From an uncultured Actinomycetes bacterium (lineage in GTDB: Bacteria; Actinomycetota; Thermoleophilia; Gaiellales; Gaiellaceae), in the NCBI GenBank assembly GCA_963803325.1, contig CAWDLU010000002.1:154982-218981 (forward strand): a stretch of 64,000 bases of DNA, read 5' to 3'. The notes under the pieces were generated by a model. That model worked only from the letters and a program-made list of their open reading frames with translations. It did no database searches and was not told where the DNA came from. Shown here piece after piece: positions 33,356 to 59,366 of the stretch. The position numbers were made by a program, and so were the translations under genes. Numbering within the stretch: the first letter of the stretch is position 1; each line of letters begins with the position of its first letter.

Positions 33356-33375
33356 CCTCGAGCTCGCGGCGCGCC

Positions 33376-40087: not shown

Positions 40088-40205
40088 CAGTTGCCCCTGG
40101 ACGAACTCTCTGGTGTCGCGGCGCGAGTACGAGATGAACGCGTCGGCCCGAGCGGCGCCGGCTTCGGCCCCCGCTGTGGGGAGACCGGCACTCGGGGCGG
40201 CGTGG

Positions 40206-41924
40206 CTACCAGTTCGGGACGAGGTTCTGTCCCCGGCTGTTGGTCAATCGTCTCTGGCCGCTTCCGTCGCGGTTCACGACCGAGATCTCGGTGTCTTTGG
40301 CCTGCCCCTCGGCGAACGCGATCCTGGTTCCGTCGGGTGACCACGTGGGGTGGAACTCGTACTCGTCGACGCTCGTCAGCCGCTGCTGGTTTCCGCCGTC
40401 CGCGTCCATCACGTAGATGCGCTGCTTGCCGTCGCGGTCGCTCTCGAAGGCGATCTCCGCCCCGTCGGGCGACCAGGCGGGATTGACGTCCGACGCGGGG
40501 TTCGAAGTCAGCCTCTTCTGGCCGCTCCCGTTCGCGTTCATCACGTAGATCTGGGGCTTTCCGTTCCGGCTGCTGTCAAAGGCGATCTTCGTTCCGTCGG
40601 GCGACCAGACGGGGTCAGCGTTCTTGCCGGCTCCCGCGGTCAGCTTCGTGCGCCCGGTCCCGTCTGCATCGATCACGTAGATCTCGGTGTCCCCGGCCAG
40701 GTTCCCCTCGAAGGCGATCTTCGCCCCGTCCGGCGACCATTTCGGGAACCGGTCGCCCGCGGGGCTCGTGGTCAGCCTGGTCTGGTCGCTTCCGTCGGCG
40801 TCCATCACGTAGAGCTGTGAGCGGCCGTAGGTCGCCCGGTTGCTCTCGAAGACGAGCTTCCCGCCGTCGGGCGACCAGGCGGGGTCGAAGCTCTGATGGG
40901 GCGGCGAGGTCAGTGGTCTCTGGCCGCTTCCGTCGGGGTTCATCGTGAAGACCTGGAAGTCGCCGCTGCGATCGCTCTCGAAGGCGATCTTCGCCGATGC
41001 GCTCCTCTCGATCGTCCACGAGTAGGAGACCGCCGGGCCGGTGTTGCCCGCTTGATCGGTCGCCCGCACCGAGAACGTGTGGCGACCGGGTGGGAGCGTG
41101 TACGGCTGGGGCGACGTGCAGGCGAACACCATCCCCCCGTCGATCGCACAGCCGTACACGGTCCCACCGGAGAACGTGAACGACGCGTCTCTGCGCGGTG
41201 TCGGGTCGCCGGGGCGGCCGCCGAGCGTCGTCGTCGGAGGTGTGAGGTCGGTGACCGGCGGCAGCGCGCTCGCCAGTTGGGCAAACGTCGTTTGCTCGAC
41301 CCGGGTCAGCTTGACCTTCTGCGGGGGTCGCGGGTTCTTTCCGAGCGGCACGACCACCTGACGGGCATAACGCTTGTCCTTCAGGTTCAGCGCCACGACG
41401 ACGCCTTTGCCCTTGCGCCCGCTCACGACGGCGACTCCGCGCCGCAGCCTGACGATTCCGCTGCGCTTGCCGACGGCGACCTCGAAGACGGGATCGGTCG
41501 TCGTCACCGTCACGTCCCGACCGAGCAGGAACTTCTTCTTCTGGCCTTTGGGCGAGGTCGAGCAGGTGGCGCCGCCGTCGAGGAAATGGATCAGCCTGGC
41601 TGCGTCCGGTACCACCTCGAGCCGGACACGCACATTCGTCTGGCAGGCCGTGCCCTTCTTCTTGACCTTGAGGCTGAAGCTGAGGAAGGTCTTTCCCCCG
41701 CCGCCGGCGCTGATCAGGTCGCCGGAGTGCAGGGGGTCTCCGGTGTGGATGCCGTGGCGGTTGATCGTCACCCCTCCGCCGGTGACTCTCTTCACCTTGC
41801 CGACGACGGCACGACCCGCTGCGCCGCCCGCCGCATCGGCCGGCACGAGCACGATCGCGCAGAGCAGCAGCGCGAGAGCTGCCCGCGGTAGGCGAGGGTG
41901 CCGGCGGACGTCGGCGAATCGCAT
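40206..41924 (-). CDS. Secreted TolB-like beta-propeller (PD40 repeats) protein with FecR-like and Ig-like N-terminal regions
   Basis: ATG 41924 with signal 'MRFADVRRHPRLPRAALALLLCAIVLVPADA'. C-terminal repeats 'FESDRSGDFQVFTMNPDGSGQRPLT', 'WSPDGGKLVFESNR...LYVMDADGSDQTRLT' and similar, six or more in all, are the PD40/TolB pattern. The tracked ORF starts at TTG 41948. Confidence 0.75.
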   Translation of the reverse strand: MRFADVRRHPRLPRAALALLLCAIVLVPADAAGGAAGRAVVGKVKRVTGGGVTINRHGIHTGDPLHSGDLISAGGGGKTFLSFSLKVKKKGTACQTNVRVRLEVVPDAARLIHFLDGGATCSTSPKGQKKKFLLGRDVTVTTTDPVFEVAVGKRSGIVRLRRGVAVVSGRKGKGVVVALNLKDKRYARQVVVPLGKNPRPPQKVKLTRVEQTTFAQLASALPPVTDLTPPTTTLGGRPGDPTPRRDASFTFSGGTVYGCAIDGGMVFACTSPQPYTLPPGRHTFSVRATDQAGNTGPAVSYSWTIERSASAKIAFESDRSGDFQVFTMNPDGSGQRPLTSPPHQSFDPAWSPDGGKLVFESNRATYGRSQLYVMDADGSDQTRLTTSPAGDRFPKWSPDGAKIAFEGNLAGDTEIYVIDADGTGRTKLTAGAGKNADPVWSPDGTKIAFDSSRNGKPQIYVMNANGSGQKRLTSNPASDVNPAWSPDGAEIAFESDRDGKQRIYVMDADGGNQQRLTSVDEYEFHPTWSPDGTRIAFAEGQAKDTEISVVNRDGSGQRRLTNSRGQNLVPNW

Positions 41925-42014
41925 CGAACAGGTGGCGGAGATGGGCAACGAACGCCCCCAGGTGAGCTGACAGCAACAACGACGCTCTCACGCCGCGTGG
42001 GGGGTGTCAAGCCC

Positions 42015-45016: not shown

Positions 45017-46135
45017 CTAGGCGGGGAAGCCGGCGAAGTGCTCGCGTTTCACCTTCGAGGCGACCGCGCGGCCGACCTGCTGGAGCTCGGCCACGTGCTC
45101 GATCGAGTCGAGCCGCTGCACCTCGGCCGGGTTGATGTCGGGCACACCGAGGAGCGTCAGGCCTTCCTTCGACAGCTCGCCGTTGTAGCGGGCGTAGGTG
45201 AAGAGCTTCGGCTCGACGGGCCCTCGCACAGTGGCGAGGTCGCCGACCTCGCGGTCGAGCGGGTCGCCTGCGAGGCAGCGGCCGAAGACCCGGCAGAGCA
45301 GGTCCTGCTCGTTCAGCGCGGCGCCCATCAGGGCGGCGGGGATCGAGCCGGCGTTGTAGAGCAGGTTCATCTCGTCCGGCCGGAGGTTCACGTTCGCGCG
45401 CGGGTTCGTTCCCGTGCCGATCGAGACCAGCAGCATCTGCTCCTCGCCCGTCGCCCAGCCGAGGCCGTACGGCTCCACCGTCGCCATCAGGAAGAGCTGG
45501 AACGCCGGGTTATTGTACATCGTCACGCCGCCGTCGACGAAGACGAACGACTGCCCGCCGCCGATGTCGATCACCTCCGGCGGGAAAAAGGTGGGCGCCG
45601 CCGTGCTCGCGCGCACGAGCTGCCAGAGCGGGAGGTCGAGATTCCGGAACGGGCGGTCGGGCAGGTTGTACCGCGCCGCCGGGTTGTTCGAGAGCGGCCA
45701 GGGCGAGTCGGTCGTCGCGTTGCGCACGACGACCAGCAGCAGCGTTCTGAGCCGGTCGCTGCCGAGTGTCGTGTCCTCGCCGAGCTCTTTCCGCAGACGC
45801 CTGGCGAGGTGGTCGTCCTCGTACTTGTAACGGAAGCGCGCCAGCACCCTTGCCTTGTCGAACATGTCGGTGGCGTTCTCGACGTAGAAGTCGCGGATCC
45901 GCTCGGCGGACATCCCGACAGAGAGGCAGGTCGCGATCACCGCGCCGGTGCTCGTGCCGGCGATGTAGTCGAAGTAGTCGGCGAGGACGAACTCCCTGCC
46001 GCCGCCGCAGTCTTCGCGCAGAAGCCGCTCGATCTCGGCCAGCACCTCGATCGTGATCAGCCCGCGGATGCCGCCGCCGTCGAGTGCAAGCAGCTTGCGC
46101 GGGCCGGCCTTCGCGAGCTTGTCGGCCACCGTCAT
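45017..46135 (-). CDS. Patatin-like phospholipase
   Basis: From ATG 46135: oxyanion 'LALDGGGIRGL', nucleophile elbow 'IAGTSTGA' (GxSxG), and the catalytic Asp context 'FVDGGVTMYNNP'. Stop lies 12 nt before the TIR-WD40 start. Confidence 0.85.
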   Translation of the reverse strand: MTVADKLAKAGPRKLLALDGGGIRGLITIEVLAEIERLLREDCGGGREFVLADYFDYIAGTSTGAVIATCLSVGMSAERIRDFYVENATDMFDKARVLARFRYKYEDDHLARRLRKELGEDTTLGSDRLRTLLLVVVRNATTDSPWPLSNNPAARYNLPDRPFRNLDLPLWQLVRASTAAPTFFPPEVIDIGGGQSFVFVDGGVTMYNNPAFQLFLMATVEPYGLGWATGEEQMLLVSIGTGTNPRANVNLRPDEMNLLYNAGSIPAALMGAALNEQDLLCRVFGRCLAGDPLDREVGDLATVRGPVEPKLFTYARYNGELSKEGLTLLGVPDINPAEVQRLDSIEHVAELQQVGRAVASKVKREHFAGFPA

Positions 46136-46137
46136 CG

Positions 46138-48168
46138 TCAGACGTCCATCCTCGTCGGGTTGACGATCGCAAAGCGGCTGCTCATCTGCTCGGCTCTCCG
46201 GGCGAAGTCGGAGGTCCCGCCGGGCCCGTCGCCCGTCGGCTTCTCGTCCCAGACCATGATTGTCGAGATCCGGCCGTTGGGCGCCTCCACCCGAGCCGTG
46301 TCGAGGATCCAGAGATTGGTGCGCGCGAAGACGTCCAGCCCGGCGGGAGGGTCGCCGAGCCGGTCCGGCTGCACGGCGACCTCGGCACGCTCGAGCACCT
46401 GGTGGAACCGCTCCTCCCACCGGCCGGCATCGCCGCGAAGCCGCACCGACCTCGCGAGGAACTCCGGCTCGGGGAGGGCGAGCAGGATCCGCACATCCGC
46501 ATCCAGCTCGAGTGCGAGCTCGGCGAACAGCAGGTCGGCGCCGCGGGCCCCGCCGCTGATCGCGAGCGTTCCTGGCCCGACCGACGCAGCCTCGAGCTCG
46601 TGCCGCATCCGCTTCCGAACCGCATCCTCCTTCTCCGGCGGAAACCGGGGTTCCGGGCGGTCCGGCGCGTCGATCATGTGGCCGCTGCAGACGATCACGT
46701 TGCCGTAGCGCTTCGCCGGCGGCGCGACGCGGTCCCGGATCGGCTCGAGGGCGGCCCGAACCTTCGCTACAGCTTCGCCCCGAAAGCCGAGCTCCTCGTA
46801 CAGGCTCAGCTGGGAGAGCATCGACTCGAGCTGAAACAGGGTTGCGCCGGGCGCGGCCAGTGCCTCCAGGTACAGCTCGACCGCGCGATCCGAGTTGCCG
46901 GCAAGCAGATCGAGCTCGCCGAGCGTCGACGCGGGCCAGACGACCGCGTCCTCCGCACCCGTGTCGTATGCGCGCCGCCGGGCCTCGGCCGCCGCCACGC
47001 GGACGCACGCGGCCAGGTCGTCGCTGTTCTCGGTGGCGGGCCCTTCCGGGTCGGCGGCCGCTCCCACGTGCTCGAGGAGCTGCGTCAGCCCGACGACGTT
47101 GATCCCGTTGTAGTACGACTCGAGGTCTCGCCGGTGCGCGCGGCGGTAGCTGCGGATCGCCAGTCGTGCCTGTGCCGCCGACTCGCGGGCGATCGCCCGC
47201 CGCTGATCGGGGTCGCCGACACCACTCCAGAGCGCGCGCCAGGCGTCCTTGTAGATGCGGCCGAGCGCGCCGTGAGACTCCGGATCGTCGGGTCGCCCCT
47301 CGAGCACGGTTGCAATCCGCTGCTCGGCCTCGGCCGCCCGGCCGAGCCGACCGAGGACGAGGGCGAGGATGCGCATCGCGCCGAGATTGCCGGGATCGAA
47401 GTCGAGCAGTTCGTCGAGGACGCTCTCCGCGACGTCGAACCGCTGGAGCTCGACCAGCGCACGCGCCGCCTCGGTCAGAAGCTTGCCCCGGTGGAACCGC
47501 GTCGGCGCGTCACGCGCGAGCGTCAGGACGTCGCCGGCGTGCCCGTTCCGGCGCGCGATGCGCACCCGTGCCTGCCAGTCGTCCAGAACGCCCTGGAAGT
47601 ACTTTGCGGTCGCCGTCTCGATCCCGCTCCAGTCCGCAGGCCGAAGCCCCCGCAGCGTCAGGTAGACAGGGCTGCCGATCGTCCGGCCGTCGGTGGCCAG
47701 CGCTTGCCGGAACACCACCCCGAGGCGCTTCGCCTCGGCGGCGACCCGTTCCGCCCACGCGTCGCCGCGTCTGGCGGCGGCCAGGAAGAGCGATCCGTCG
47801 TAGCTGAACGTGCGATCGGGGGCGACGTCGAACGGGCGGGGAATCCAGCCCGCGGTGATCATGAACACGCCGCGCTCGGCGACGCCGTGGCGGATGCCGA
47901 GCTCGTAGAAGACGTTCGGGTTCAGGATCGAGATGTCCGCGACCACGAGGTCGGCCGTGACCAGCTCGAAGTACATGTCGGTCCGGATGTCGCCGGCGCC
48001 CGGCTCCTCGTCCGCGCGGAACGGGTCGCAGCCCGCCTCGCGGAGCGCCGGTGCGATCACGAGCCCGTACAGCTCGTTGAAGTCGACGGTCACGGTTCGG
48101 CCTCGCTGCGTCGGTGACGGCACCTTGCGCTTCCCGAACGGCATCGCGACAAACGCGCGCGGCAGCAT
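46138..48168 (-). CDS. Three-part protein: N-terminal flavodoxin-fold DUF4071/nucleoside-deoxyribosyltransferase/TIR-like domain, TPR-like helical middle, C-terminal SLOG-like Rossmann domain
   Basis: From ATG 48168: 'MLPRAFVAMPFGKRKVP...VDFNELYGLVIAPALREAG...ADISILNPNVFYELGIRHG'. The middle is a helical repeat region ('ARALVELQRFDVAESVLDELLDFDPGNLGAMRILALVLGRLGRAAEAEQ'). C-terminal 'NVIVCSGHMIDAPDRPEPRFP...LAISGGARGADLLFAELALELDADVRILLALP'. Stop TGA lies 2 nt before the patatin ATG. Domain names are from memory of the families. The tracked ORF starts at 48264. Confidence 0.65.
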   Translation of the reverse strand: MLPRAFVAMPFGKRKVPSPTQRGRTVTVDFNELYGLVIAPALREAGCDPFRADEEPGAGDIRTDMYFELVTADLVVADISILNPNVFYELGIRHGVAERGVFMITAGWIPRPFDVAPDRTFSYDGSLFLAAARRGDAWAERVAAEAKRLGVVFRQALATDGRTIGSPVYLTLRGLRPADWSGIETATAKYFQGVLDDWQARVRIARRNGHAGDVLTLARDAPTRFHRGKLLTEAARALVELQRFDVAESVLDELLDFDPGNLGAMRILALVLGRLGRAAEAEQRIATVLEGRPDDPESHGALGRIYKDAWRALWSGVGDPDQRRAIARESAAQARLAIRSYRRAHRRDLESYYNGINVVGLTQLLEHVGAAADPEGPATENSDDLAACVRVAAAEARRRAYDTGAEDAVVWPASTLGELDLLAGNSDRAVELYLEALAAPGATLFQLESMLSQLSLYEELGFRGEAVAKVRAALEPIRDRVAPPAKRYGNVIVCSGHMIDAPDRPEPRFPPEKEDAVRKRMRHELEAASVGPGTLAISGGARGADLLFAELALELDADVRILLALPEPEFLARSVRLRGDAGRWEERFHQVLERAEVAVQPDRLGDPPAGLDVFARTNLWILDTARVEAPNGRISTIMVWDEKPTGDGPGGTSDFARRAEQMSSRFAIVNPTRMDV

Positions 48169-48266
48169 CCGCTCGTCCTGTGAGCTCACAGGCGGCCGCC
48201 TCTGGCAGTCATCGCAATCGAGAGCGTACGCTCCCCGCTGTGGACGCGAGCGGAAGGTGATCACGC

Positions 48267-51200
48267 GTGGCCGGTGTCTTCATCAGCTACCGGCGTAGCG
48301 ACACGGCCCCGTACGCAGCGCGTCTGAAAGTACGCCTCGACTCCGAGTTCGGCGACGGGTACGTCTTCATGGACGTCGACTCGCTCAGACCCGGGGAGCC
48401 GTTTCCAAAGGTGATCGAGCAGACGATCGCGTCCACCGAGGCCGTGCTCGCCCTGATCGGGCCCGACTGGCTGACCGTGACCGGCGCCGACGGGCGGCGC
48501 CGGCTCGACAACCCCGGCGACTTCGTCCGGATCGAGCTGGCGACCGCCTTCCGGCAGGGGCGGGTCGTGATCCCGGTGCTGCTCGAGAACGCCTCGATGC
48601 CGCACGCGGTCGAGCTCCCCGAGCCGCTCGCTGCCCTCGCGGAGCGGCACGCGATCGAGCTCGGGGACAAGGGCTGGGACGGTGACGTTGCCCGCCTCGT
48701 GCAGCGCCTCGAGGAGGTTGTCGACACGATTCCGCCCCGCCCGTACCCGGGCATGGTCGCGTTCGGGCGAGCCGATGCCGCTCGGTTCTTCGGGCGGGAG
48801 AAGGAGGTCGGCGAGATCGAGGACCGGCTCGCCTCGCAGCGGTTCCTGTGCCTCGTCGGCCCATCCGGGTGCGGCAAGTCGTCGCTGATCGCGGCGGGCG
48901 TGCTTGCCGACCTCGAGCGCACGCAGGCGGTTCGTTGGGCTGTGCGCACCATGCGGCCGGGGGGAGCGCCGATGCGTTCGCTCGGCGAGGCGCTCGGTGC
49001 CGAGCTCGATCACACGGCCACGCCCGAGGCGGTCGGGCGGGCGGCCGGACAGGCGATCGCCTCCCAGCAAGAGGCGGCGCGGCTGCTGCTCGTGGTCGAC
49101 CAGCTCGAGGAGCTGTTCGCGCAGGCCGGCTCGGACGAGCAGGCGCGGTTCGTCGCCGCGCTCGAGGCGATCCACGAGGTCGACGAGGCCTCGATCGTGC
49201 TGGCGATCCGAGCCGACTTCTACGGCGAGTTGATGGAGAGCGCGCTCTGGCCGCTCGTCGAGGGAGGCAAGGTCGACGTGCCCCCACTCACCGGCGACGC
49301 TCTCGCCGAGGCGATCGTCGAGCCGGCGAAGGCCTGCCACGTGACGATCGAGCCCGACCTGCTCGAGCGACTGCTGGCGGACGCAGGCAACGAGCCCGGA
49401 GCGCTGCCGCTCCTCCAGGAGGCGCTCGTACGCCTGTGGGGGTCGATGCACCTGCACCGGATCTCGCTCGCCGCCTACGAGCAAATCGGCGAGGGCCGCG
49501 GCGGCCTGTCCGCCGCCGTCGCCGAAACGGCCGACGCGGCGCTGGCGGCGCTCTCGCCCAAGCAAGTGTCGATCGCCAAGCGCGTGCTGCTCCGGCTGGT
49601 TCAGTTCGGGCAGGGCCGTCCGGACACGCGCCGCCGGCTCGCCTTCGAGGACCTGCGCAGCGAGGGCGACGACGACCGCGCGCTCGAGGAGGTGCTCGAC
49701 AGCCTCGCCCGCTCCCGCCTCGTCACGCTCGCCGGCTCGGCCACCCCGGGCGCGGGCGGTGAACTGGTCGACCTCGCCCACGAGGCGCTGATCGCCGGGT
49801 GGCCGACGATGCGCGAATGGCTGGCCGAGCGACGCGACGCCGAGCAGGCTCGCCGGCGGCTCGAGGGTCACGTTGCGACCTGGGAGGAGCACGACCGCAC
49901 CGCCGCCTTCCTCGACGAGGTCGAGCTGCGGGAGGCCCAGGGCTGGCTCGCCGGCCCCGACGCGCGAGAGCTCGGGGTCCCGCGCGGCCTGCCCGAGCTC
50001 GTCGCGGTGAGCGCCGCCAAGCTGCGCCGCCGCCGCCGTCTCCGCCGCGCTGCGATCGCCGGTCTCGCCGGCCTGCTGATCGCGGCGATCGTGCTCGCGG
50101 GCGTCTTCCTGCGGGCACGCAACGACGCCATTCACCGGGCCAACGTCGCGCTCTCGCGCGAGCGGGCGGCCGGTGCGCTCGCGGCTCTCTCCGTCGACCC
50201 GCACCACAGCCTGCGGCTCGCGCTCCAGGCTGTCGACGCGCTCAGGGCGGACCGCTCCGCCACGGCGGCGGACCGCCAGGAGGCCGAGGCGGCCCTGCGG
50301 GACGCGGTCCGCGCGTCACGGGTTCGCGCGCTGCTGAAAGGGCACACGGCCGAGGTCGTGTCGGCGCACTTCGACGCGAGCGGCCGGCGCGTCGTCACCG
50401 CCGGCTGGGACGGGACAGCGCGCGTATGGGATGCGCGCACCGGTAGAGCCGAGGCGGTGATGCGTACCGGCGCGGTTCAACTCGAGACAGCCGCCTTCGA
50501 TCCCGACGGGACGCGTGTGATCACGGCCCAAGACGACGGCACCGCCCGCGTGTGGAACGCCGGGACCGGAGCCCCTCTGGCGGTGCTTCGCCACGAACCG
50601 CGCTCGAAGGTGCTCGATGCCGGCTTCAGCGCTGACGGCCGCTTCGTCGTCACCGCCGGCTCCGACGGGACCGCGCGCGTCTGGGACGCGAGCACCTGGC
50701 GGCCGGAGACGACGCTCGGCCGTGTCGGCGGGCCGGAGATCCGGCGCGCGGTCTTCAGCCGCGACGGCTCGCTGGTGGCGACCGCCGGACGCGACGGATT
50801 CGCCGTCGTCTGGAGCACGTCCACCGGCAGGTCGCTTGCCCGGCTCCGGCACGGGGCCGCGGTCGGATCGGTGCGCTTCGGCCCTGACCGGTCGATCGTG
50901 ACCGCGAGCGACGACGGCACCGCGCGGGTCTGGTGTCCGTTCGCGCGCGAAGCGAAGCCGGTCGTGCTCCGCGGGCACCAGGGCGTGGTCACCGACGCCG
51001 AGTTCAGCCCCGACGGCACGCGCGTCGTCACGGCGAGTCTCGACGGCACGGCGCGGTTGTGGAGCCCGCGGACGGGCGAGGAGCTCACCGTCCCGCTCAC
51101 ACACGGCGGCGCGGTCCGCACCGCGACGTTCAGCCCCGACGGGACGCGTGTCGTCACGGCGAGCGCCGACCAGACCGCCCGAATCTGGGACGCCCGCACG

Positions 51201-52400
51201 GGCAAGGAGCACGCCGCGCTTCGGGGTCACGACAACTACGTCGGGAGCGCCGAGTTCAGCCCCGACGGGACACGGGTCCTCACGTCGAGCTTCGACGACA
51301 CCGCTCGTGTCTGGGACGCGGCCGAGGAGGAGCCCCTGGTCACGGTGGGAAGCAGCAGGTTCCCGGTTGCTCGCGCCGCCCTCAGCCCGGACGGCAAGCG
51401 ATTCGTGACGACGCCGTCGCTCGGTGATCCGCGCGTCCTCGACGCCGGGACCGGGGCGGCGGTCTCTACCCTGGCCGTTGACGGCGCTCGGGTCGTCAGC
51501 GCAGAGTTCAGCGCCGACGGCCGCGACGTGGTCACCGCGGAGGCGGGCTCCGTGCGGATCTGGGCCGCGGCCACCGGCAGACTCGTGGGCTCGAAGGAGC
51601 TGAAGGGTGACCCCGTGGTCGCCGTCCCGAGCCCCGATGCCGCCGCCATCGTCTCGGTCAGCGTGGACGACTCCGCCGATCGGTCCGTGACCACGGTCGC
51701 GCTCTGGAATCGCACACGCCCGGAGCCGGCCGCGACCTGGCACCTCGACGGGCGTGGGCAGGGAGCGGACTTCGACGCGAACGGCCGCCGGCTCGTCGTC
51801 TGGTCGGAGGACGGCGGCGTCTCGGTGTGGGACATCCCCTCACGCCGCAGGCTCGCCGCCTTCTCGATCCCCACCGCGCTGCGGTCCGCTTCGCTCAGCC
51901 CCGACGGCTCGCGCGTGGTCACCGCCGGGAACGACGGCATTGCTCGGATCTGGGATGTCGCGAGCGGAGGGGAGCTGAAGAGCTTCAGCCATGCTCTCGC
52001 GGTCGTCGCCGCATCGTTCAGCGCCGACGGCAGCCGGCTGCTGACCGCCGGCCTCGACCAGACCGCGAAGATCTGGGACGCGCAAACGGGTGACGAGCTC
52101 GTCTCGTTGAAGGGTCACGAGTCCGAGCTTGCCGGTGCGACCTTCAGCGCCGGCGACCGATGGGTGGTGACCGCCGGTCTCGACGAGACGGCGCGCACCT
52201 GGGACGCGCTGACGGGTCAGGAGCTCGCGGTCTTTCAACATCCGGCCGCCGTCACCGAAGCGACATTCGACCGGGACGGCCGCCGCGTGCTCACGCTGGC
52301 GGCCGACTTCCGCGCACGCGTGTTCCGCTGCGATACGTGCCTTTCGCTCGACGGGCTCGTTCGCCTTGCCCGCAGCCGGCTCGTCGCCGGTCTCCAGTAG
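48267..52400 (+). CDS. TIR - nSTAND-type P-loop NTPase - hydrophobic helix - WD40 repeat protein (1377 aa)
   Basis: GTG 48267: 'AGVFISYRRSDT...DFVRIELATA' (TIR). 'PYPGMVAFGRADAARFFGREKEVGEIEDRL...FLCLVGPSGCGKSSLIAAG' (Walker A at about 48858-48884) and 'LLLVVDQLEELF' (Walker B) match the nSTAND1-type pattern. Helix 'AAIAGLAGLLIAAIVLAGVFL' at about 50050-50112. About 16 WD40 blades. C-terminal 'RVFRCDTCLSLDGLVRLA'. Confidence 0.85.
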   Translation: MAGVFISYRRSDTAPYAARLKVRLDSEFGDGYVFMDVDSLRPGEPFPKVIEQTIASTEAVLALIGPDWLTVTGADGRRRLDNPGDFVRIELATAFRQGRVVIPVLLENASMPHAVELPEPLAALAERHAIELGDKGWDGDVARLVQRLEEVVDTIPPRPYPGMVAFGRADAARFFGREKEVGEIEDRLASQRFLCLVGPSGCGKSSLIAAGVLADLERTQAVRWAVRTMRPGGAPMRSLGEALGAELDHTATPEAVGRAAGQAIASQQEAARLLLVVDQLEELFAQAGSDEQARFVAALEAIHEVDEASIVLAIRADFYGELMESALWPLVEGGKVDVPPLTGDALAEAIVEPAKACHVTIEPDLLERLLADAGNEPGALPLLQEALVRLWGSMHLHRISLAAYEQIGEGRGGLSAAVAETADAALAALSPKQVSIAKRVLLRLVQFGQGRPDTRRRLAFEDLRSEGDDDRALEEVLDSLARSRLVTLAGSATPGAGGELVDLAHEALIAGWPTMREWLAERRDAEQARRRLEGHVATWEEHDRTAAFLDEVELREAQGWLAGPDARELGVPRGLPELVAVSAAKLRRRRRLRRAAIAGLAGLLIAAIVLAGVFLRARNDAIHRANVALSRERAAGALAALSVDPHHSLRLALQAVDALRADRSATAADRQEAEAALRDAVRASRVRALLKGHTAEVVSAHFDASGRRVVTAGWDGTARVWDARTGRAEAVMRTGAVQLETAAFDPDGTRVITAQDDGTARVWNAGTGAPLAVLRHEPRSKVLDAGFSADGRFVVTAGSDGTARVWDASTWRPETTLGRVGGPEIRRAVFSRDGSLVATAGRDGFAVVWSTSTGRSLARLRHGAAVGSVRFGPDRSIVTASDDGTARVWCPFAREAKPVVLRGHQGVVTDAEFSPDGTRVVTASLDGTARLWSPRTGEELTVPLTHGGAVRTATFSPDGTRVVTASADQTARIWDARTGKEHAALRGHDNYVGSAEFSPDGTRVLTSSFDDTARVWDAAEEEPLVTVGSSRFPVARAALSPDGKRFVTTPSLGDPRVLDAGTGAAVSTLAVDGARVVSAEFSADGRDVVTAEAGSVRIWAAATGRLVGSKELKGDPVVAVPSPDAAAIVSVSVDDSADRSVTTVALWNRTRPEPAATWHLDGRGQGADFDANGRRLVVWSEDGGVSVWDIPSRRRLAAFSIPTALRSASLSPDGSRVVTAGNDGIARIWDVASGGELKSFSHALAVVAASFSADGSRLLTAGLDQTAKIWDAQTGDELVSLKGHESELAGATFSAGDRWVVTAGLDETARTWDALTGQELAVFQHPAAVTEATFDRDGRRVLTLAADFRARVFRCDTCLSLDGLVRLARSRLVAGLQ

Positions 52401-52515
52401 CCGGCACGAGATGCTGCGATTGTTGCGATTTCTTCACCGATGAGCGATCATCGCTGGACGGCAGGCGAACTGCGAGGGAGGGATCGTGCACCCGACGCGG
52501 GACGATGCTGCGGCC

Positions 52516-53790
52516 ATGCGGAGACCTAGGATCTTCGTCTTTGCCCTGCTCCTCCTCGCGATGATCGCAGTCTCGGGCTCGGCTCCGGCGGCCGGGAGCT
52601 CGCCTCTCGGCGCCGCCGCGGGCACGACCCAGGTGTTCATCGTCCCGAGCGGATACGGAGACATCGCGGTCGAGGGCGCCGGCGCTCCGTTTACCTGCAC
52701 GAACGAGCTGTACGCCGGCAGCGGGTGCGGGGTGTCGGTCCCGACCGGTACCAAGCTCACGTTCAGAGCGACCGCGAAGCCCGTACAGGCCCCGGAGCCG
52801 GGCGTCGACCCGCGCCCGAATCCGCCGGTTGCATCCGTGTTCGGCGGGTGGAGCCGGCCCGAGTGCACGTCCGGCGGGCCGTGCGTGGTCAAGGCCGCCG
52901 CCGCCGAGGAGTGGATCGTCGCGCAGTTCTCGCCGGTGTGGCTCGAGGCGCTCGTGGCCGGATCGGGCACAGTCAGCGCAGGCAATGTGCAGCGCACCTG
53001 CACCGACGATCGATGTGTCATGGGCCTGTTCAAGGCCGGTACGCAGGTGACGGTGACTGCCCGGCCGGCGACCGCCGGAGCGGCCACCAGGTTCGGCTTC
53101 GGCTGCGACCCGTACGAGAGCGATCTGACCGCCGGTCGCTGCGTCGTCGACATGTCGAACGTCAGGAACTTCGTCAGCGTCGGATTCGGCGACGCCGACC
53201 CGGACGGCTCCCCTCCGTTCAATCAAGCGGTCGATCTCAAGGTCGCGCGCGCCGGCAACGGTCAGGGACGAGTTCAGGGGAGCGGTCAGTCGGCCGATCT
53301 GAATGCGGGCCCGTGGAACATCGATTGCGGCAGCGCGTGCGACGTCAACGGTTTGCAGTACCAGACCCAGGTGCGGTTGCGGGCAGTGAAGAGCGACGGC
53401 TCGGTCTTCGAGCGCTGGACGGGACCGCCGTGTCTCAGCCAGGAGACCTGCACCTTCACAGCGGGCAGGTATCCGAAGGCGATCGCGATCTTCCGGAAGG
53501 AGCAAGCCTTCAGCGCAGCGGTTGTGACGGTCACGGCTACCGGGACGCGGGCGACGCGCGCCGTCGTCGCCCGCCTCTCGACGAACGCCGCCGCCACGGT
53601 GAGCCTGCGGCTTCTGCGGATGGGCAAGTCTCTGAGCCGGGGGAGCTTCGACGTCTCCGCGGGCACGAGCCGGCTCACCCTCAAGGTTCCCCGCAGCGCG
53701 GCGCCCGGCTGGTGCGCCCTCGACCTCTCCGTCGCCGCCGCCGACGGCACCACGCGCACGTTCCGTAAGTGGATCCGGATTGGAGCATAG
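52516..53790 (+). CDS. Secreted repeat protein (divergent InlB B-repeat-like modules)
   Basis: ATG 52516 with signal 'MRRPRIFVFALLLLAMIAVSGSAPAAG'. Recurrent 'F.GW..P.C....C' modules ('VFGGWSRPECTSGGPCVV', 'VFERWTGPPCLSQETCTF', 'FGFGCDPYESDLTAGRCVV'). Family call is tentative. Confidence 0.5.
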   Translation: MRRPRIFVFALLLLAMIAVSGSAPAAGSSPLGAAAGTTQVFIVPSGYGDIAVEGAGAPFTCTNELYAGSGCGVSVPTGTKLTFRATAKPVQAPEPGVDPRPNPPVASVFGGWSRPECTSGGPCVVKAAAAEEWIVAQFSPVWLEALVAGSGTVSAGNVQRTCTDDRCVMGLFKAGTQVTVTARPATAGAATRFGFGCDPYESDLTAGRCVVDMSNVRNFVSVGFGDADPDGSPPFNQAVDLKVARAGNGQGRVQGSGQSADLNAGPWNIDCGSACDVNGLQYQTQVRLRAVKSDGSVFERWTGPPCLSQETCTFTAGRYPKAIAIFRKEQAFSAAVVTVTATGTRATRAVVARLSTNAAATVSLRLLRMGKSLSRGSFDVSAGTSRLTLKVPRSAAPGWCALDLSVAAADGTTRTFRKWIRIGA

Positions 53791-53795
53791 GAGGC

Positions 53796-55322
53796 ATGGT
53801 GAATCTCTCGCAGACCGAGTTGAGGCGGCAGGTTCGGACAGCGAAGAAGAACGGCTGGGCGGCGATCTGCACCGAGGCGGAGCAGGCCGCCGGACTGCCG
53901 GCCGGGATCCTGCTCGCCGTCGCCTCACGGGAGACGAACGTGACCGACATCGTCGGCGATCGGGGACACGGCCGCGGGCTCTTTCAGATCGACGATCGCT
54001 CGTGGAAGGAGTGGCTCGCCGCGCAAGGCGCAGGCGGCAGTGGGAAGACGCCGCCGGTCGCCGCGGCGGCCCGCCTCGCCGCGTCGATCATCCGGGACAA
54101 CCGCGCCTTCGGGCGCAAGAACGGCGTCGCCGAGCCCGACCTCGCGAAGTTCGCGCTCTCCGCCTACAACGCGGGTGCGGGCGGTGCGATCAGGGGCTAC
54201 CGCGAAGGCGACTCGGACCTGCACACCACGGGGGCGGACTACGGGAAAGACGTCCTCGAGCGCCTGGCCGCGATCGCGGGTGGTGCTGCACCCGACCCGA
54301 AGCCGGCCGCGGACGACGTTCTCCGCGTCGGCTCGCGCGGGAGCCGCGTCACCGGACTCAAGGAGAGGCTCCGGCAGTGGTTCGACCTGAACGCCCCTGG
54401 CGAATGGGAGACGTTCAAGGTCGGCCAGGGCCCGCTCTTCGATCCGAAGCTGAAGCGCGCCGTCCGAGTGTTCCAGGAGCGGCAGGGGCTCCTGGTCGAC
54501 GGGGAGGTCGGCGCTCAGACGCTGGGGGTTCTCGGCATCGCCCCTGCTCCGGCGCCCGCTCCAGCCCCGAGTCTGCCGCCTGACCTGACGCTCGATCGCG
54601 TCTACCGGAAGGGAAGCGGCGGCGTGCATGTCCGGCTGATTCAGGGATGGCTCTGCCTGGGGGGCTTCGCGCTCGCGGCCGACGGGGAGTTCGGCCCGGC
54701 GACGCTGCGCCAGGTAAAGGCCTTCCAGAAGCAGAAGGGGTTGAAGCCGACCGGGGCGGTCGACGAAGCGACCTACGACGCCCTGACCGCCCCGATGCAC
54801 GCGGCGCTGAGGCCGCTCCCACCGGCCGCCTCGCTCGGTGCGATGGTGGTCGCGTATGCGAAGCAGCACCTCGCCCAGCATCCCCATGAGGTGCGGCTGA
54901 TGCCGAACGACGGGCCGTGGGTACGTCTGTACACCGACGGGCACGAGGGCGATGCCTTTCCCTGGTGTGCCGGCTTCGCGACGTTCGTCCTCAAGCAGGC
55001 GTGCGAGACGATGGACGTCCGGATGCCGGTCGCGCGAACGCTGTCGTGCGACGAGATGGCCGCGACTGCGAAGGCGTCGAGGATCTTCCTGGCGAGCCCG
55101 TCGACCGCCGAGCGCAAGCGGATCACGCCGGGAAGCATGTTCCTGCGGCGGGCGGTCTCCGGCGGCCTCGCGTACGCCCACACCGGCATCGTCACCGAGG
55201 CCGGCGCCGACACGTTCGCCTCGATCGAGGGCAACACGAACGACGGCGGCAGCTTCGAGGGCATCGAGGTGATCGACCGCGTCCGAAGCTACGACCGGAT
55301 GGACTTCGTTCTGATCCGGTAG
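53796..55322 (+). CDS. Multi-domain peptidoglycan hydrolase: lysozyme/transglycosylase-like N-terminus, two PG_binding_1 repeats, C-terminal CHAP/NlpC-like domain
   Basis: ATG 53796 is preceded by AGGAGG. 'LLAVASRETNVTDIVGDRGHGRGLFQIDDRSW' is a lysozyme-like Glu context. 'FDPKLKRAVRVFQERQGLLVDGEVGAQTL' and 'FGPATLRQVKAFQKQKGLKPTGAVDEATYDAL' are PG-binding repeats. 'FPWCAGFATFVLKQA...HTGIVTEAG...IEGNTNDGG' is a CHAP-like Cys/His. No signal peptide seen. Confidence 0.7.
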   Translation: MVNLSQTELRRQVRTAKKNGWAAICTEAEQAAGLPAGILLAVASRETNVTDIVGDRGHGRGLFQIDDRSWKEWLAAQGAGGSGKTPPVAAAARLAASIIRDNRAFGRKNGVAEPDLAKFALSAYNAGAGGAIRGYREGDSDLHTTGADYGKDVLERLAAIAGGAAPDPKPAADDVLRVGSRGSRVTGLKERLRQWFDLNAPGEWETFKVGQGPLFDPKLKRAVRVFQERQGLLVDGEVGAQTLGVLGIAPAPAPAPAPSLPPDLTLDRVYRKGSGGVHVRLIQGWLCLGGFALAADGEFGPATLRQVKAFQKQKGLKPTGAVDEATYDALTAPMHAALRPLPPAASLGAMVVAYAKQHLAQHPHEVRLMPNDGPWVRLYTDGHEGDAFPWCAGFATFVLKQACETMDVRMPVARTLSCDEMAATAKASRIFLASPSTAERKRITPGSMFLRRAVSGGLAYAHTGIVTEAGADTFASIEGNTNDGGSFEGIEVIDRVRSYDRMDFVLIR

Positions 55323-55641: not shown

Positions 55642-55977
55642 GTGGATACCAGCGTCGCGGTGCCATTGCTCGTGCAGACGCATCGGGCGCGCGCAGAGGT
55701 GACGCGCTGGTGGGAGGGCCAAGAGATCGCGCTCTGCGGCCAGGCGCTCGCCGAGACCTACTCCGTGCTGACCAGGCTCCCCGGCGACGCGCGAATGGAG
55801 CCGACCGACGCAGCGCTGTTGTTGCGCGAGCGATTCGCCCGTCCGTTCGTGCTCCGGGCCGAGGCAACCGAGCGCGCCTTCCGCGGCGAGCTCGTCCCGC
55901 AGAGCCCCTCCGACGAGCCCGCGTCGGTCCTGCTCGAGCGCATCCGCGCCGAGCGCGCCGAGTCGTCCGACCTGTAG
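55642..55977 (+). pseudogene. Truncated PIN (VapC) toxin fused in frame to an hsdS C-terminal remnant
   Basis: The N-terminal about 75 aa, '[14 protein letters not shown]...[17 protein letters not shown]', are PIN/VapC-like, but the C-terminal half of the PIN fold is absent. From about 55869 the frame reads '[29 protein letters not shown]', the stereotyped C-terminus of type I S subunits. Confidence 0.55.
55869..55951 (+). repeat. 83-bp direct repeat, copy 1 (hsdS 3' end)
   Basis: CGAGCGCGCCTTCCGCGGCGAGCTCGTCCCGCAG...CTCGAGCGCATCCGCGCCG. Differs from copy 2 (56903-56985) at 3 positions by eye. Confidence 0.8.
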
Positions 55978-58935: not shown

Positions 58936-59366
58936 ACGCGGACGATGTGGACGCGCTGCTCGCCGAAGGCGTGCTCGCACGAGTTGTCGCCGACACCGAG
59001 GAGGCGCGGCGCGAGCTCGACGCGGCGAAGGCGCATCTCCGTGGAGCCAAGGCGGCCGTGAAGGTCGACCCGACCGGTGCTTTCACGCTCGCCTATGACG
59101 CCGCGCGGAAGGCCGTCGTTGCGCACATGCGGGCAAACGGGTTTCGCGTCGGGCGGCGGTTTGGAGTCCATGTCCAGACCGGTCGCTATGCACGCGCGGC
59201 GCTCCGGGGTCCCGACGCCGATCGGCACCTCACCGCTTTCGAGAACATGCGGATCGTGCGCAACGACACTGAGTACGGAGCCGAGATCGTGAGTGCCGCC
59301 GACGCGGCTGAAGCTCTGGCTCATGCACGTGCGATCGTCGCAGCGGTCGAGGCCGAACTCGGATGA
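58932..59366 (+). CDS. HEPN domain protein (toxin partner of MNT)
   Basis: 144 aa and helical, with 'MRIVRNDTEYG' (R-x4-E/H HEPN-like motif). Has 4-nt overlaps with both neighbours. Confidence 0.6.
   Translation: MNADDVDALLAEGVLARVVADTEEARRELDAAKAHLRGAKAAVKVDPTGAFTLAYDAARKAVVAHMRANGFRVGRRFGVHVQTGRYARAALRGPDADRHLTAFENMRIVRNDTEYGAEIVSAADAAEALAHARAIVAAVEAELG

What the first reader, a model, noticed from the sequence alone, without database searches (positions are those of the whole stretch)
48267..52400. 1377-aa TIR / nSTAND-type NTPase / hydrophobic helix / WD40 protein, divergent from the SLOG-patatin operon
Seen in sequence:
- TIR: 'VFISYRRSD', 'DFVRIEL'.
- Then 'PYPGMVAFGRADAARFFGRE...LVGPSGCGKSS' (Walker A) and 'LLLVVDQLEELF' (Walker B).
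- Then a hydrophobic helix and about 16 WD40 blades.
- Only 98 bp (48169-48266) separate it from the divergently transcribed SLOG-like/patatin/TIR operon, so the two units may share regulation.

Established knowledge: effector-STAND NTPase-repeat proteins (Avs/NLR-like, nSTAND families) are bacterial pattern-recognition immune proteins. TIR effectors act as NADases or signal synthases.

Inference: this is an NLR-like sensor with TIR output. Its product could also feed the adjacent SLOG-like receptor.
Basis: partly seen in the sequence, partly recalled or inferred. Interest (0 to 1): 0.7.

Follow-up and report, generated by a model that had tools for sequence, protein, structure and literature searches.

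The report
Membrane-anchored TIR–nSTAND1–WD40 NLR-like receptor
This is an intact gene for a bacterial relative of plant and animal NLR immune receptors (a TIR "death" enzyme, a STAND molecular switch and a WD40 sensor); it belongs to a large family already described by computation, but its sensor appears to lie outside the cell membrane and it is always paired with a secreted partner protein.

Summary
Window 48267-52400 (+) is a real 1377-aa gene with these parts:
- TIR_2 (aa 4-144). Glu90 aligns with the SARM1 catalytic E642.
- A full-length nSTAND1 NTPase (PF20703, E 1.5e-104) with all STAND motifs intact.
- One strongly hydrophobic helix (aa 595-617).
- 16 WD40 repeats.

It is an ordinary member of a very large family that has been described only computationally (Kaur et al. 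2021). About 29,600 cluster representatives match at E<=1e-10.

1. The hydrophobic helix is a family feature. It occurs in 152 of 194 homologues, against 4 of 194 in a control window. It has a positive-inside charge bias, which predicts that the sensor is extracytoplasmic.
2. The conserved partner is the co-directional downstream gene (52486-53790), not the divergent TPR-S/patatin operon. This gene encodes a secreted protein with six cysteine pairs. It lies directly downstream in all nine loci that retain the end of a STAND gene.

The TPR-S/patatin pair is linked only loosely. It is absent from three orthologous loci and also occurs on its own.

Most likely mechanism (inferred): sensing from outside the membrane, then NTP-driven oligomerisation, then TIR NADase activity. 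No function has been tested experimentally.

The parts
48267..52400 (+). Complete gene, 1377 aa: TIR - nSTAND1 - transmembrane helix - 16 WD40 repeats
   Evidence: ORF list and translation. GC3 is 0.90. Domains from Pfam.
48252..48257 (+). Shine-Dalgarno-like GGAAGG, 9 nt upstream of the GTG start
   Evidence: Read from the sequence. Identical in the MAG orthologue.
48276..48698 (+). TIR domain (aa 4-144), SARM1-like, with putative catalytic Glu90
   Evidence: Pfam TIR_2, E 4e-14. phmmer against PDB finds the SARM1 TIR at E 1.3e-7; DFVRIEL aligns with DWVHKEI, so Glu90 corresponds to SARM1 E642. Foldseek gives TM 0.84-0.87 and rmsd 2.0-2.8 A to SARM1 TIR.
48741..49901 (+). nSTAND1 STAND NTPase module (aa 159-545). 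Motifs: CPYPGM; hhGRExE (FFGREKE); Walker A GPSGCGKS (K204); Walker B VVDQLEE (D278, E281, E282); sensor-1 RADFY (R315); GEPGALP; winged-helix His505.
   Evidence: PF20703, E 1.5e-104, full model length. These residues are invariant or nearly invariant in 60 homologues. AF2 pLDDT is 90-98 across the module. Foldseek matches RPP1, CED-4, ZAR1, Apaf-1 and Cdc6/Orc1.
49902..50048 (+). Conserved helical linker after the NTPase (aa 546-594: '...LDEVELREAQGWL...'), ending in a basic run KLRRRRRLRR
   Evidence: The same module is seen in most homologues and in the neighbouring TIR-TM-WD40 paralogues.
50049..50117 (+). Predicted single transmembrane helix (aa 595-617, AAIAGLAGLLIAAIVLAGVFLRA), oriented N-in / C-out
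   Evidence: KD19 is 2.71, with 8 K/R in the 15 aa before the helix and 3 after. It forms part of one 66-residue helix (aa 575-640) in the AF2 model. An equivalent helix is present in 152 of 194 homologues, against 4 of 194 in a control window.
50118..50336 (+). Helical region before the propellers (aa 618-690)
   Evidence: AF2 helices 645-661 and 667-690. It is 37% identical over 105 aa to the equivalent part of the paralogue at 37166-40195.
50337..52322 (+). 16 WD40 repeats (aa 691-1352), enough for two beta-propellers; the predicted sensor
   Evidence: Pfam WD40, E 8e-83, plus many propeller families. Repeat count. Mean identity between repeats is 0.36.
52323..52397 (+). C-terminal tail with CxxC (RCDTC) and a closing helix
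   Evidence: Read from the translation. The same CxxC-plus-helix tail is present in the three TIR-TM-WD40 paralogues of the window.
52486..53790 (+). Conserved partner gene: 434-aa secreted protein with a signal-peptide-like N-terminus and six closely spaced Cys pairs. It starts 85 nt after the STAND stop codon on the same strand.
   Evidence: KD19 is 2.3 at aa 16-34. There are 13 Cys, 12 of them in pairs: 71/81, 127/133, 172/177, 207/219, 281/285, 316/322. These features are conserved in the family alignment A4. The gene lies directly downstream of a TIR-nSTAND1-WD40 orthologue in L001, L002, L006, L009, L010, L011, L012 and L015. No terminator-like site lies between the two genes.
48169..48266 (.). 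98-nt divergent intergenic region containing a perfect 16-nt palindrome, CCTGTGAGCTCACAGG (48177-48192)
   Evidence: The aligned stretch across this region (window 48120-48300, which also takes in the first codons of both flanking genes) is 97% identical to the MAG orthologue, with one mismatch in the palindrome. No sigma-70-like promoter was matched.

Best explanation
**What it is**
- The gene encodes a single-chain NLR-like 'conflict' receptor of the nSTAND1 clade of STAND NTPases.
- It forms a two-gene cassette with a downstream gene for a secreted protein.

**Shown by sequence and model**
- An N-terminal SARM1-like TIR domain with the catalytic Glu.
- A complete STAND NTPase module.
- One strongly hydrophobic helix preceded by a basic run.
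- 16 WD40 repeats.

**Inferred mechanism**
- The TIR and NTPase halves sit in the cytoplasm.
- The helix crosses the membrane with its N-terminal end inside.
- The WD40 propellers lie outside the membrane, together with the Cys-rich partner.
- There they detect a cue at the cell envelope. Candidates are a phage or competitor component, damage to or loss of the partner, or non-self hyphae.
- Ligand binding releases autoinhibition of the nSTAND1 module. The module exchanges or binds NTP and oligomerises.
- Clustered TIR domains then become active NADases. They deplete NAD+ or make ADPR-derived signals.
- The outcome is growth arrest or death of the affected cell or compartment.
- Nearby effectors in the same island (patatin lipases, a SLATT pore protein) may be secondary outputs.
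For: **Family and motifs**
- PF20703 matches over its full length at E 1.5e-104.
- Walker A, Walker B, hhGRExE, sensor-1, GxP and the winged-helix His are invariant or nearly invariant in 60 homologues.
- The AF2 model of aa 1-700 has pLDDT 87.9 and pTM 0.74.
- Its best Foldseek hits are plant TIR-NLR RPP1 (E 4e-9), CED-4, ZAR1, NRC2 and Apaf-1.

**TIR**
- TIR_2 at E 4e-14.
- Glu90 aligns with SARM1 E642.
- TM-score 0.84-0.87 to SARM1 TIR.

**Membrane topology**
- KD19 is 2.71 with 8 versus 3 K/R on the two flanks.
- An equivalent helix about 100 aa after the winged-helix His is present in 65/79 and 91/118 homologues.
- K+R is higher on the N-terminal side in 54/65 and 79/91 of these.
- 85 of 91 have only this one hydrophobic segment.
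- The pooled figure is 152/194, against 4/194 in a control window.
- Some family members have N-terminal HTH or ParA-like domains that must be cytoplasmic.

**Partner**
- The secreted protein with six Cys pairs lies directly downstream, on the same strand, in all nine loci that retain the 3' end of a STAND gene (window, L001, L002, L006, L009-L012, L015). L014 keeps only a WD40 remnant upstream, and L013 has no upstream sequence.
- The WD40 region and the partner both diverge faster than the TIR, NTPase and linker. Identities are 53-62% and 45-57% against 63-79%.

**Conflict context**
- The island also holds three TIR-TM-WD40 paralogues, SLATT, a CapV-like patatin, a PIN protein and HsdM.
- Other loci hold caspase-TIR, CHAT, SLATT and transposase genes.
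- The literature predicts that effector-nSTAND1-sensor proteins are counter-invader systems (PMC8195603; PMC13581612).
Against: - No member of nSTAND1 has been tested experimentally in any paper I could find, and no structure of one has been solved. Defence, NADase activity and oligomerisation are therefore all inferred.
- PADLOC gives only weak TIR hits and no Avs or NLR model.
- Topology rests on hydropathy and charge bias only. No dedicated transmembrane predictor and no experiment was available.
- True WD40 propellers outside the cytoplasm are unusual.
- Published work treats STAND sensors as intracellular.
- About 20% of homologues lack the helix.
- The closest orthologue (a MAG) carries at least five frame changes. 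These are either assembly errors or decay of the gene.
- The partner family is small (26 homologues) and restricted to this clade.
Confidence: 0.6

Rival explanations
1. It is a conventional cytoplasmic Avs/NLR-like sensor. The hydrophobic helix does not span the membrane; it is peripheral, or buried in an oligomer. The WD40 propellers bind a phage protein inside the cell, as Avs TPR sensors and the Apaf-1 WD40 domain do.
For: - All experimentally characterised bacterial STAND defence proteins sense cytoplasmic phage proteins (PMC13581612).
- Apaf-1 uses WD40 propellers in the cytosol (PMC7159879).
- About 20% of homologues lack the helix yet keep the same sensor types.
Against: - The segment has 21 consecutive apolar residues after RRRRRLRR.
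- A helix at this position occurs in 78% of homologues, against 2% in a control window, with a consistent positive-inside bias.
- The conserved neighbour is a secreted protein with paired cysteines.
Confidence: 0.25
2. This is the first reader's idea: a multi-gene signalling system. The TIR domain makes a nucleotide signal that is read by the adjacent TPR-S protein, through its 'SLOG-like' C-terminal domain, and that switches on the CapV-like patatin. The two units share the 98-nt divergent control region. This idea is compatible with the main explanation.
For: - The units are adjacent in the window and in L001.
- The TPR-S/patatin pair lies within about 10 kb of the STAND cassette in L006 and L009.
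- The patatin matches CBASS phospholipase effectors, which are activated by nucleotides (PDLC00758, E 5e-43).
- L009 and L011 have a different patatin (patatin-DUF3376) plus SLATT placed divergently from the STAND gene.
- A perfect 16-nt palindrome lies in the conserved intergenic region.
- The C-terminal domain of the TPR-S protein is a Rossmann-like alpha/beta fold with GGARGAD and DGPGGT loops.
Against: - The TPR-S/patatin pair is a self-contained unit that is much more conserved than the STAND gene (at least 50% identity across the top 120 hits). It occurs with no TIR or STAND gene in L007.
- It has its own TIR-like N-terminal domain.
- STAND orthologues in L002, L010 and L011 lack the pair.
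- Position and orientation vary wherever both are present.
- The SLOG assignment was not confirmed.
Confidence: 0.2
3. It is not anti-phage. Instead it is a receptor for envelope stress, development or allorecognition in a filamentous actinomycete. On this view it controls programmed death of hyphal compartments or kin discrimination, by analogy with the fungal HET-E NACHT-WD40 proteins.
For: - nSTAND1 homologues are concentrated in multicellular or filamentous lineages. Among plasmid hits: Streptomyces 55, Nostoc 7, Rhodococcus 7, Acaryochloris 6, Tolypothrix 6.
- Kaur et al. report the same enrichment.
- An extracytoplasmic sensor with a secreted partner suits cell-to-cell or envelope cues.
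- A PG_binding_1 gene follows the partner in the window and in L001.
Against: - The neighbourhood looks like a defence island, with a restriction-modification methylase, a PIN protein, a CapV-like patatin and SLATT.
- The TIR has an intact NADase Glu, which is typical of abortive-infection effectors.
Confidence: 0.15
4. It is a decaying or non-functional gene.
For: - The MAG orthologue has at least five frame changes across the gene.
- One paralogue in the window has no canonical start codon upstream of its TIR domain.
Against: - In the window the 4.1-kb frame is open with GC3 0.90.
- Every catalytic and structural motif is intact.
- Intact orthologues of 1394 and 1299 aa exist in L009 and L010.
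- Other genes in the same MAG locus are also called in pieces, which suggests the MAG frameshifts are long-read indel errors.
Confidence: 0.03

Closest known systems
nSTAND1 effector-NTPase-sensor proteins (Pfam PF20703; Kaur, Iyer, Burroughs and Aravind 2021, eLife 10:e70394)
   Same: - The NTPase clade is the same, with a full-length HMM match.
- The layout is the same: N-terminal effector (TIR is listed among them), NTPase, then a C-terminal repeat or lectin sensor.
- The enrichment in actinobacteria and cyanobacteria is the same.
   Different: - The paper centres on FGS/lectin sensors and EAD adaptors; here the sensor is WD40.
- The text searched does not mention a membrane helix between the NTPase and the sensor, nor a secreted partner gene.
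Plant TIR-NLRs (RPP1, ROQ1): TIR - NB-ARC - LRR
   Same: - The order is the same: TIR, then STAND NTPase, then repeats.
- RPP1 is the best structural match of the AF2 model (7dfv/7crc, E 4e-9 over about 570 columns).
- The expected logic is the same: ligand-driven oligomerisation activates the TIR NADase.
   Different: - The NTPase clade differs (nSTAND1, not NB-ARC).
- The sensor is WD40, not LRR.
- Plant TNLs are soluble and cytosolic, whereas this protein has a predicted transmembrane helix.
- Sequence identity is only 12-13%.
Apaf-1 / CED-4 apoptosome proteins and bacterial 'Apaf-1-like' STANDs with WD40 propellers (PMC13581612)
   Same: - A STAND NTPase followed by two WD40 propellers that act as the sensor. 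Apaf-1 has 15 blades; this protein has 16 repeats.
- Foldseek matches 3shf, 1z6t and 4m9s.
   Different: - Those proteins belong to the AP-ATPase clade and carry CARD or caspase effectors, and they are soluble.
- This protein is nSTAND1 with a TIR effector and a membrane helix.
Avs1-5 / bNACHT antiviral STANDs
   Same: One polypeptide with three parts: effector, STAND NTPase and sensor. The proposed pattern-recognition logic is also the same.
   Different: - No PADLOC Avs or NLR model matches.
- Avs sensors are TPR-like and bind cytoplasmic phage proteins.
- Avs effectors are mostly nucleases.
SARM1 TIR NADase
   Same: - It is the closest solved TIR by both sequence and fold.
- The catalytic Glu is conserved.
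   Different: SARM1 is regulated by ARM and SAM domains and by NMN/NAD+, not by a STAND NTPase.
Toll-like receptors
   Same: If the helix spans the membrane, the topology is the same: extracellular repeat sensor, single transmembrane helix, cytoplasmic TIR.
   Different: - TLRs have no NTPase and use LRRs.
- Their TIR is a scaffold, not an enzyme.
- The resemblance is an analogy only.

Membership tests
nSTAND1 (PF20703) clade of STAND NTPases | Match to the family HMM above the curated threshold, over the whole model | tested here: met
   351 bits against a cut-off of 27.1, E 1.5e-104. Model positions 1-377 of 379 match aa 159-545.
nSTAND1 (PF20703) clade of STAND NTPases | P-loop NTPase motifs: Walker A GxxxxGK[ST] and Walker B hhhhD followed by acidic residues | tested here: met
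   GPSGCGKS (K204) and LLLVVDQLEE (D278, E281, E282). These are invariant or nearly invariant in 60 homologues.
nSTAND1 (PF20703) clade of STAND NTPases | STAND-specific features: the hhGRExE motif before the P-loop, a helical GxP domain, and a winged-helix domain with a conserved His (established knowledge, Leipe et al. 2004) | tested here: met
   FFGREKE (R177 invariant), GEPGALP, and His505 in AHEALIAGW. The AF2 fold matches NB-ARC, CED-4 and Apaf-1.
nSTAND1 (PF20703) clade of STAND NTPases | NTP binding or hydrolysis and ligand-dependent oligomerisation | not testable with these tools
   This needs biochemistry. No solved structure of a relative exists.
Enzymatic (NADase) TIR domains | TIR fold with the catalytic Glu in the position of SARM1 E642 | tested here: met
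   TIR_2 at E 4e-14. Glu90 aligns with SARM1 E642. TM-score 0.84-0.87.
Enzymatic (NADase) TIR domains | NAD+ cleavage activity | not testable with these tools
Avs (antiviral STAND) families 1-5 | Match to Avs HMMs, with a TPR-like sensor for phage terminase or portal | tested here: not met
   PADLOC returns no Avs model; it gives only weak ThsB/SAVED-TIR and mad hits. The sensor is WD40.
Thoeris (ThsB TIR plus ThsA) | A ThsB-type TIR protein next to a ThsA (SIR2 or TM, with SLOG) effector | tested here: not met
   ThsB hit at only E 1e-5. The NCBIfam Thoeris III ThcB4 model scores 31 bits against a cut-off of 220. No ThsA-like gene was found among the neighbours scanned.
Single-pass membrane receptor (N-in, C-out) | One hydrophobic segment of about 20 residues with a positive-inside charge bias, conserved in homologues | tested here: met
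   KD19 is 2.71 with 8 versus 3 K/R. The segment occurs in 152/194 homologues against 4/194 in a control window. The N-terminal flank is more basic in 79/91.
Single-pass membrane receptor (N-in, C-out) | Experimental or dedicated-predictor evidence that the C-terminal domain is extracytoplasmic | not testable with these tools
   No TMHMM, DeepTMHMM or experimental data were available. The only indirect support is the conserved secreted partner.
SLOG superfamily (claim made about the neighbouring gene 46138-48168) | Match to a SLOG/LOG/YpsA/LSDAT model or fold | tested here: inconclusive
   No Pfam hit at E<=1 for the C-terminal 250 aa. A profile search against PDB found only TPR proteins. AF2 shows a Rossmann-like alpha/beta domain with GGARGAD and DGPGGT loops. 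Foldseek on the whole model was dominated by the TPR region.

The most novel reading that the evidence does not exclude
The nSTAND1 proteins, this one included, may not be intracellular pattern-recognition receptors at all. They may be single-pass transmembrane NLRs. In that case an extracytoplasmic sensor drives a cytoplasmic STAND switch and TIR enzyme. Here the sensor would be two WD40 propellers working with a dedicated secreted, disulfide-bonded partner protein. This would be a bacterial hybrid of Toll-like-receptor topology and NLR mechanism. It would sense phages, competitors or non-self kin at the cell surface, before or without entry of foreign material.
Probability: 0.4. Interest if true: 0.75.

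Novelty: new member of a known kind. Interest (0 to 1): 0.45.

Why it matters
As first described, this is one more TIR-STAND-repeat protein from a very large family that has already been named.

It matters more if the topology inference holds. Every bacterial STAND/NLR studied so far senses its ligand inside the cell. A family of tens of thousands of membrane-spanning NLR-like proteins with outward-facing WD40, TPR or lectin sensors would add an outside-in branch to bacterial innate immunity, or to kin recognition in multicellular bacteria. It would also be a striking functional parallel to TLRs.

The compact two-gene cassette (receptor plus secreted partner) found here gives a concrete, testable entry point. 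The nearby patatin and SLATT genes are candidate downstream effectors.

Tried and rejected
**Searches that found little or nothing**
- An exact-sequence look-up of the protein, with V or M as first residue, found nothing on record.
- The genome-contig scan returned only the one close MAG, 'uncultured Actinomycetes bacterium MFD04944.bin.2.116'.
- The metagenome scan with the partner family returned only four short loci.
- phmmer of the NTPase against PDB sequences gave only P-loop noise from ABC transporters, so there is no solved relative.
- PADLOC and NCBIfam gave no defence-system assignment.
- The supplementary tables of the 2026 Nature STAND survey are not held. I could not check whether the nSTAND1 clade was scored as defence-associated.
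- Literature searches for a membrane helix in STAND/WD40 proteins found nothing relevant.

**The SLOG question for the neighbouring gene**
- I tested it with Pfam at E<=1, with a 49-sequence profile against PDB, and with AF2 plus Foldseek.
- Only TPR matches came back, because Foldseek takes the whole model.
- The question stays open.

**Regulatory scans**
- Sigma-70 promoter and intrinsic-terminator scans of the divergent region and of the STAND-partner gap found nothing. This is uninformative for a high-GC actinomycete.

**Considered and rejected**
- Housekeeping ATPase: the ABC-transporter hits cover Walker A only.
- Membership of Avs, bNACHT or Thoeris.
- A fixed divergon shared with the patatin operon.

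**Not done**
The number of propellers is therefore unresolved.

Full report
**1. Observation**

The ORF at 48267-52400 (+), 1377 aa with a GTG start, is present as described.
- The window is about 71% G+C.
- The ORF shows the codon-position bias of a real high-GC gene: GC3 0.90 against GC2 0.54.
- A GGAAGG site lies 9 nt upstream of the GTG.
- The start region is identical in a closely related metagenome-assembled genome.

**2. Domains**

- Pfam finds TIR_2 at aa 4-144, E 4e-14.
- It finds nSTAND1 (PF20703) at aa 159-545, covering positions 1-377 of the 379-position model, E 1.5e-104.
- It finds WD40, E 8e-83, with many propeller families over about aa 700-1340.
- An alignment with 59 homologues shows these residues to be invariant or nearly invariant:
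  - CPYPGM;
  - the STAND hhGRExE motif (FFGR177EKE);
  - Walker A (G198-S206, K204);
  - Walker B (D278-Q-L-E281-E282);
  - sensor-1 (R315-ADFY);
  - the GxP loop;
  - the winged-helix His505.
- By sequence, the TIR domain is closest to SARM1. DFVRIEL aligns with DWVHKEI, which places Glu90 on the catalytic E642.
- An AF2 model of aa 1-700 is confident, with pLDDT 87.9 and pTM 0.74.
- Its best PDB matches are the plant TIR-NLR RPP1 (E 4e-9), CED-4, ZAR1, NRC2, Apaf-1 and Cdc6/Orc1. The TIR part superposes on SARM1 TIR at TM 0.84-0.87.
- No solved structure is a sequence relative of the NTPase.
- Counting by sequence gives 16 WD40-like repeats, followed by a CxxC-plus-helix tail.

The only such hits are Walker-A-only matches to ABC transporters.

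**3. How common and how well known the family is**

- The NTPase domain finds 43,769 cluster representatives at E<=1e-3, 29,606 at E<=1e-10 and 11,420 at E<=1e-30.
- Many of the best hits are 1,300-1,400 aa long with the NTPase starting near residue 150, which is the same layout as here.
- Homologues combine nSTAND1 with N-terminal TIR, CHAT, HTH or ParA-like domains.
- Their C-terminal parts are WD40, TPR, FGE-sulfatase/lectin or nuclease domains.
- Among plasmid records, hits are concentrated in Streptomyces, Nostoc, Rhodococcus, Acaryochloris and Tolypothrix.
- The clade was named by Kaur et al. 2021. They predicted that effector-NTPase-sensor proteins with TIR and other effectors are counter-invader systems of multicellular bacteria (PMC8195603).
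- nSTAND1-FGE proteins are targets of diversity-generating retroelements (PMC10907252).
- A 2026 survey labels an nSTAND clade and shows WD40 propellers as STAND sensors (PMC13581612).
- I found no experimental test of any nSTAND1 protein.
- PADLOC has no model for it.

On this evidence the protein is a new member of a known, computationally defined kind.

**4. The hydrophobic helix**

- Residues 595-617 (AAIAGLAGLLIAAIVLAGVFLRA) have a 19-residue Kyte-Doolittle mean of 2.71.
- They follow KLRRRRRLRR. There are 8 K/R in the 15 residues before the helix and 3 after.
- AF2 builds one 66-residue helix, aa 575-640, through this segment.
- The helix is not peculiar to this protein:
  - In the first homologue set, 65 of 79 evaluable proteins have such a segment, at a median of 97 residues after the winged-helix His. 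The N-terminal flank is more basic in 54 of the 65.
  - In an independent set of 50%-identity representatives, 91 of 118 have it. The N-terminal flank is more basic in 79 and less basic in 5. In 85 of the 91 it is the only such segment. Of the WD40-bearing members, 27 of 31 have it.
  - Pooled, 152 of 194 have it, against 4 of 194 for a window of equal size inside the NTPase module.
- The three TIR-WD40 paralogues in the same window have the same basic-run-plus-helix module between the TIR domain and the propellers.
- TIR (which needs NAD+), the NTPase and the HTH domains of some relatives must be cytoplasmic. A membrane-spanning helix therefore puts the sensors outside.
- This is an inference from hydropathy and charge. 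No dedicated predictor or experiment was available.
- None of the papers searched discusses it.

**5. Which neighbours are conserved**

The downstream partner gene:
- The gene 85 nt downstream on the same strand (52486-53790) encodes a 434-aa protein.
- It has a signal-peptide-like N-terminus (KD19 2.3 at aa 16-34) and 12 cysteines in six close pairs.
- Both features are conserved in its family.
- Its only Pfam hint is a weak Flg_new_2 / InlB B-repeat match.
- The family is small, with 26 homologues. Some members carry RTX and DUF11 modules.
- In every locus that retains the 3' end of a STAND gene, a homologue lies directly downstream of a TIR-nSTAND1-WD40 orthologue on the same strand. Where both genes are called intact (L009-L011) the gap is 60-88 nt. 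These loci are L001, L002, L006, L009, L010, L011, L012 and the partial L015.
- L014 keeps only a WD40 C-terminal remnant upstream of the partner. L013 has no upstream sequence.
- This includes L002 and L010, which have no patatin or TPR-S gene within the flanks read. L011 has no TPR-S gene and no CapV-like patatin, although it carries a different patatin, described below.
- Across orthologues the WD40 region (53-62% identity) and the partner (45-57%) diverge faster than the TIR, NTPase and linker (63-79%).

The divergent TPR-S/patatin operon:
- The operon consists of a 676-aa TPR-S protein and a 372-aa patatin that matches CBASS phospholipase effectors at E 5e-43.
- It is a highly conserved two-gene unit in its own right.
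- It is divergent-adjacent only in the window and in its 91%-identical relative.
- It lies 10 kb away in L006, and downstream on the other strand, with a truncated TPR-S gene, in L009.
- It is absent from L002, L010 and L011.
- It is present with no TIR or STAND gene in L007.
- L009 and L011 instead have a patatin-DUF3376 gene, a SLATT gene and a DUF5995 gene placed divergently from the STAND gene. SLATT and DUF5995 also occur in the window at 32.7 kb and 36.4 kb.

My conclusions from the neighbourhoods:
- The STAND-plus-partner pair is the functional core.
- Patatin and SLATT genes are recurrent but loosely arranged neighbours. That fits either defence-island clustering or optional downstream effectors.
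- The specific claim of a shared divergent promoter is not conserved. The 98-nt spacer does carry a perfect 16-nt palindrome, and the aligned stretch across it is 97% identical between the two close relatives.

**6. Mechanism**

Shown by sequence and model:
- an intact TIR with the catalytic Glu;
- an intact STAND switch;
- one conserved hydrophobic helix;
- 16 WD40 repeats;
- a conserved secreted partner.

Inferred from established knowledge of NLRs, of Apaf-1 and of TIR NADases (RPP1/ROQ1 and SARM1):
- The propellers, probably with the partner, bind or monitor a cue outside the membrane.
- The signal releases the nSTAND1 module to bind NTP and oligomerise.
- Clustered TIR domains cleave NAD+.
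- The result is growth arrest or death, or a nucleotide signal for nearby effectors.

Alternatives are a conventional cytoplasmic sensor, a TIR-to-TPR-S/patatin signalling relay, and a developmental or allorecognition role. They are listed in the rival explanations with their evidence.

**7. Verdict**

- The gene is a new member of a known kind.
- It has two features worth following up: the family-wide membrane helix and the conserved secreted partner.
- No function has been demonstrated for any member of the family.

Noticed in passing
window 52486-53790 (+); also L001, L002, L006, L009-L012, L015: A 434-aa secreted protein with six Cys pairs and no confident Pfam match always lies directly downstream of the STAND orthologue. 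Its family is small (26 homologues). Some members carry RTX/HemolysinCabind and DUF11 modules.
   Followed up: yes
window 37163-40195 (-): A TIR_2-TM-WD40 paralogue. The start of its TIR domain ('ADAFISYSRRD') lies upstream of the first in-frame ATG/GTG/TTG at 40087. Either it uses a non-canonical start codon or its 5' end is damaged.
   Followed up: partly
window 42056-45004 (-): A TIR-TM-WD40 paralogue, the third gene of the patatin operon. Its WD40 units are highly alike, with mean pairwise identity 0.71 and maximum 0.88, against 0.36 in the STAND protein. This suggests recent repeat homogenisation or shuffling.
   Followed up: partly
window 32723-36357 (+): A SLATT_3/DUF4231 two-transmembrane effector gene (E 6e-29) lies immediately upstream of another TIR_2-TM-WD40-like gene. 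This looks like a separate TIR-plus-pore two-gene unit. A TIR-plus-SLATT pair also lies near the nSTAND1 gene in L005.
   Followed up: no
window 48177-48192: A perfect 16-nt palindrome, CCTGTGAGCTCACAGG, lies 9 nt upstream of the TPR-S gene ATG in the divergent spacer. It is unique in the window and has one mismatch in the MAG orthologue. It may be an operator, or an RNA hairpin overlapping the ribosome-binding site.
   Followed up: partly
window 46138-48168 (-) and 45017-46135 (-): The TPR-S protein has three parts: an N-terminal TIR-like alpha/beta domain, TPR-S, and a C-terminal Rossmann-like domain with GGARGAD and DGPGGT loops. Together with a CapV-like patatin it forms a very conserved two-gene unit (at least 50% identity over the top 120 hits). 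The pair is found from this Actinomycetes MAG lineage and Thermoleophilaceae/Solirubrobacteraceae MAGs to Acidobacteria, and it occurs without any cyclase gene nearby.
   Followed up: partly
L009 1-3574 and L011 1-3593: In two other loci the STAND gene is divergent from a 780-790-aa patatin-DUF3376 gene, followed by SLATT and DUF5995 genes. The same gene families are scattered through the window's island.
   Followed up: partly
L001 10001-14357: The MAG orthologue is colinear with the window gene (89% nucleotide identity) but changes reading frame at least five times. Other genes in that locus are also called in pieces. The likely cause is long-read indel errors rather than decay.
   Followed up: partly
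window 40206-41948 (-): A secreted PD40/TolB-like beta-propeller protein (580 aa) lies between two of the TIR-TM-WD40 genes.
   Followed up: no
window 53769-55322 (+), 55642-55977 (+), 59363-60841 (+), 15422-18172 (+): Four other genes were noted. A PG_binding_1 protein gene overlaps the end of the partner gene by about 19 nt. There is a PIN-domain protein and a type I restriction-modification HsdM methylase. Further upstream lies a MalT-like AAA_16-TPR-LuxR regulator.
   Followed up: no
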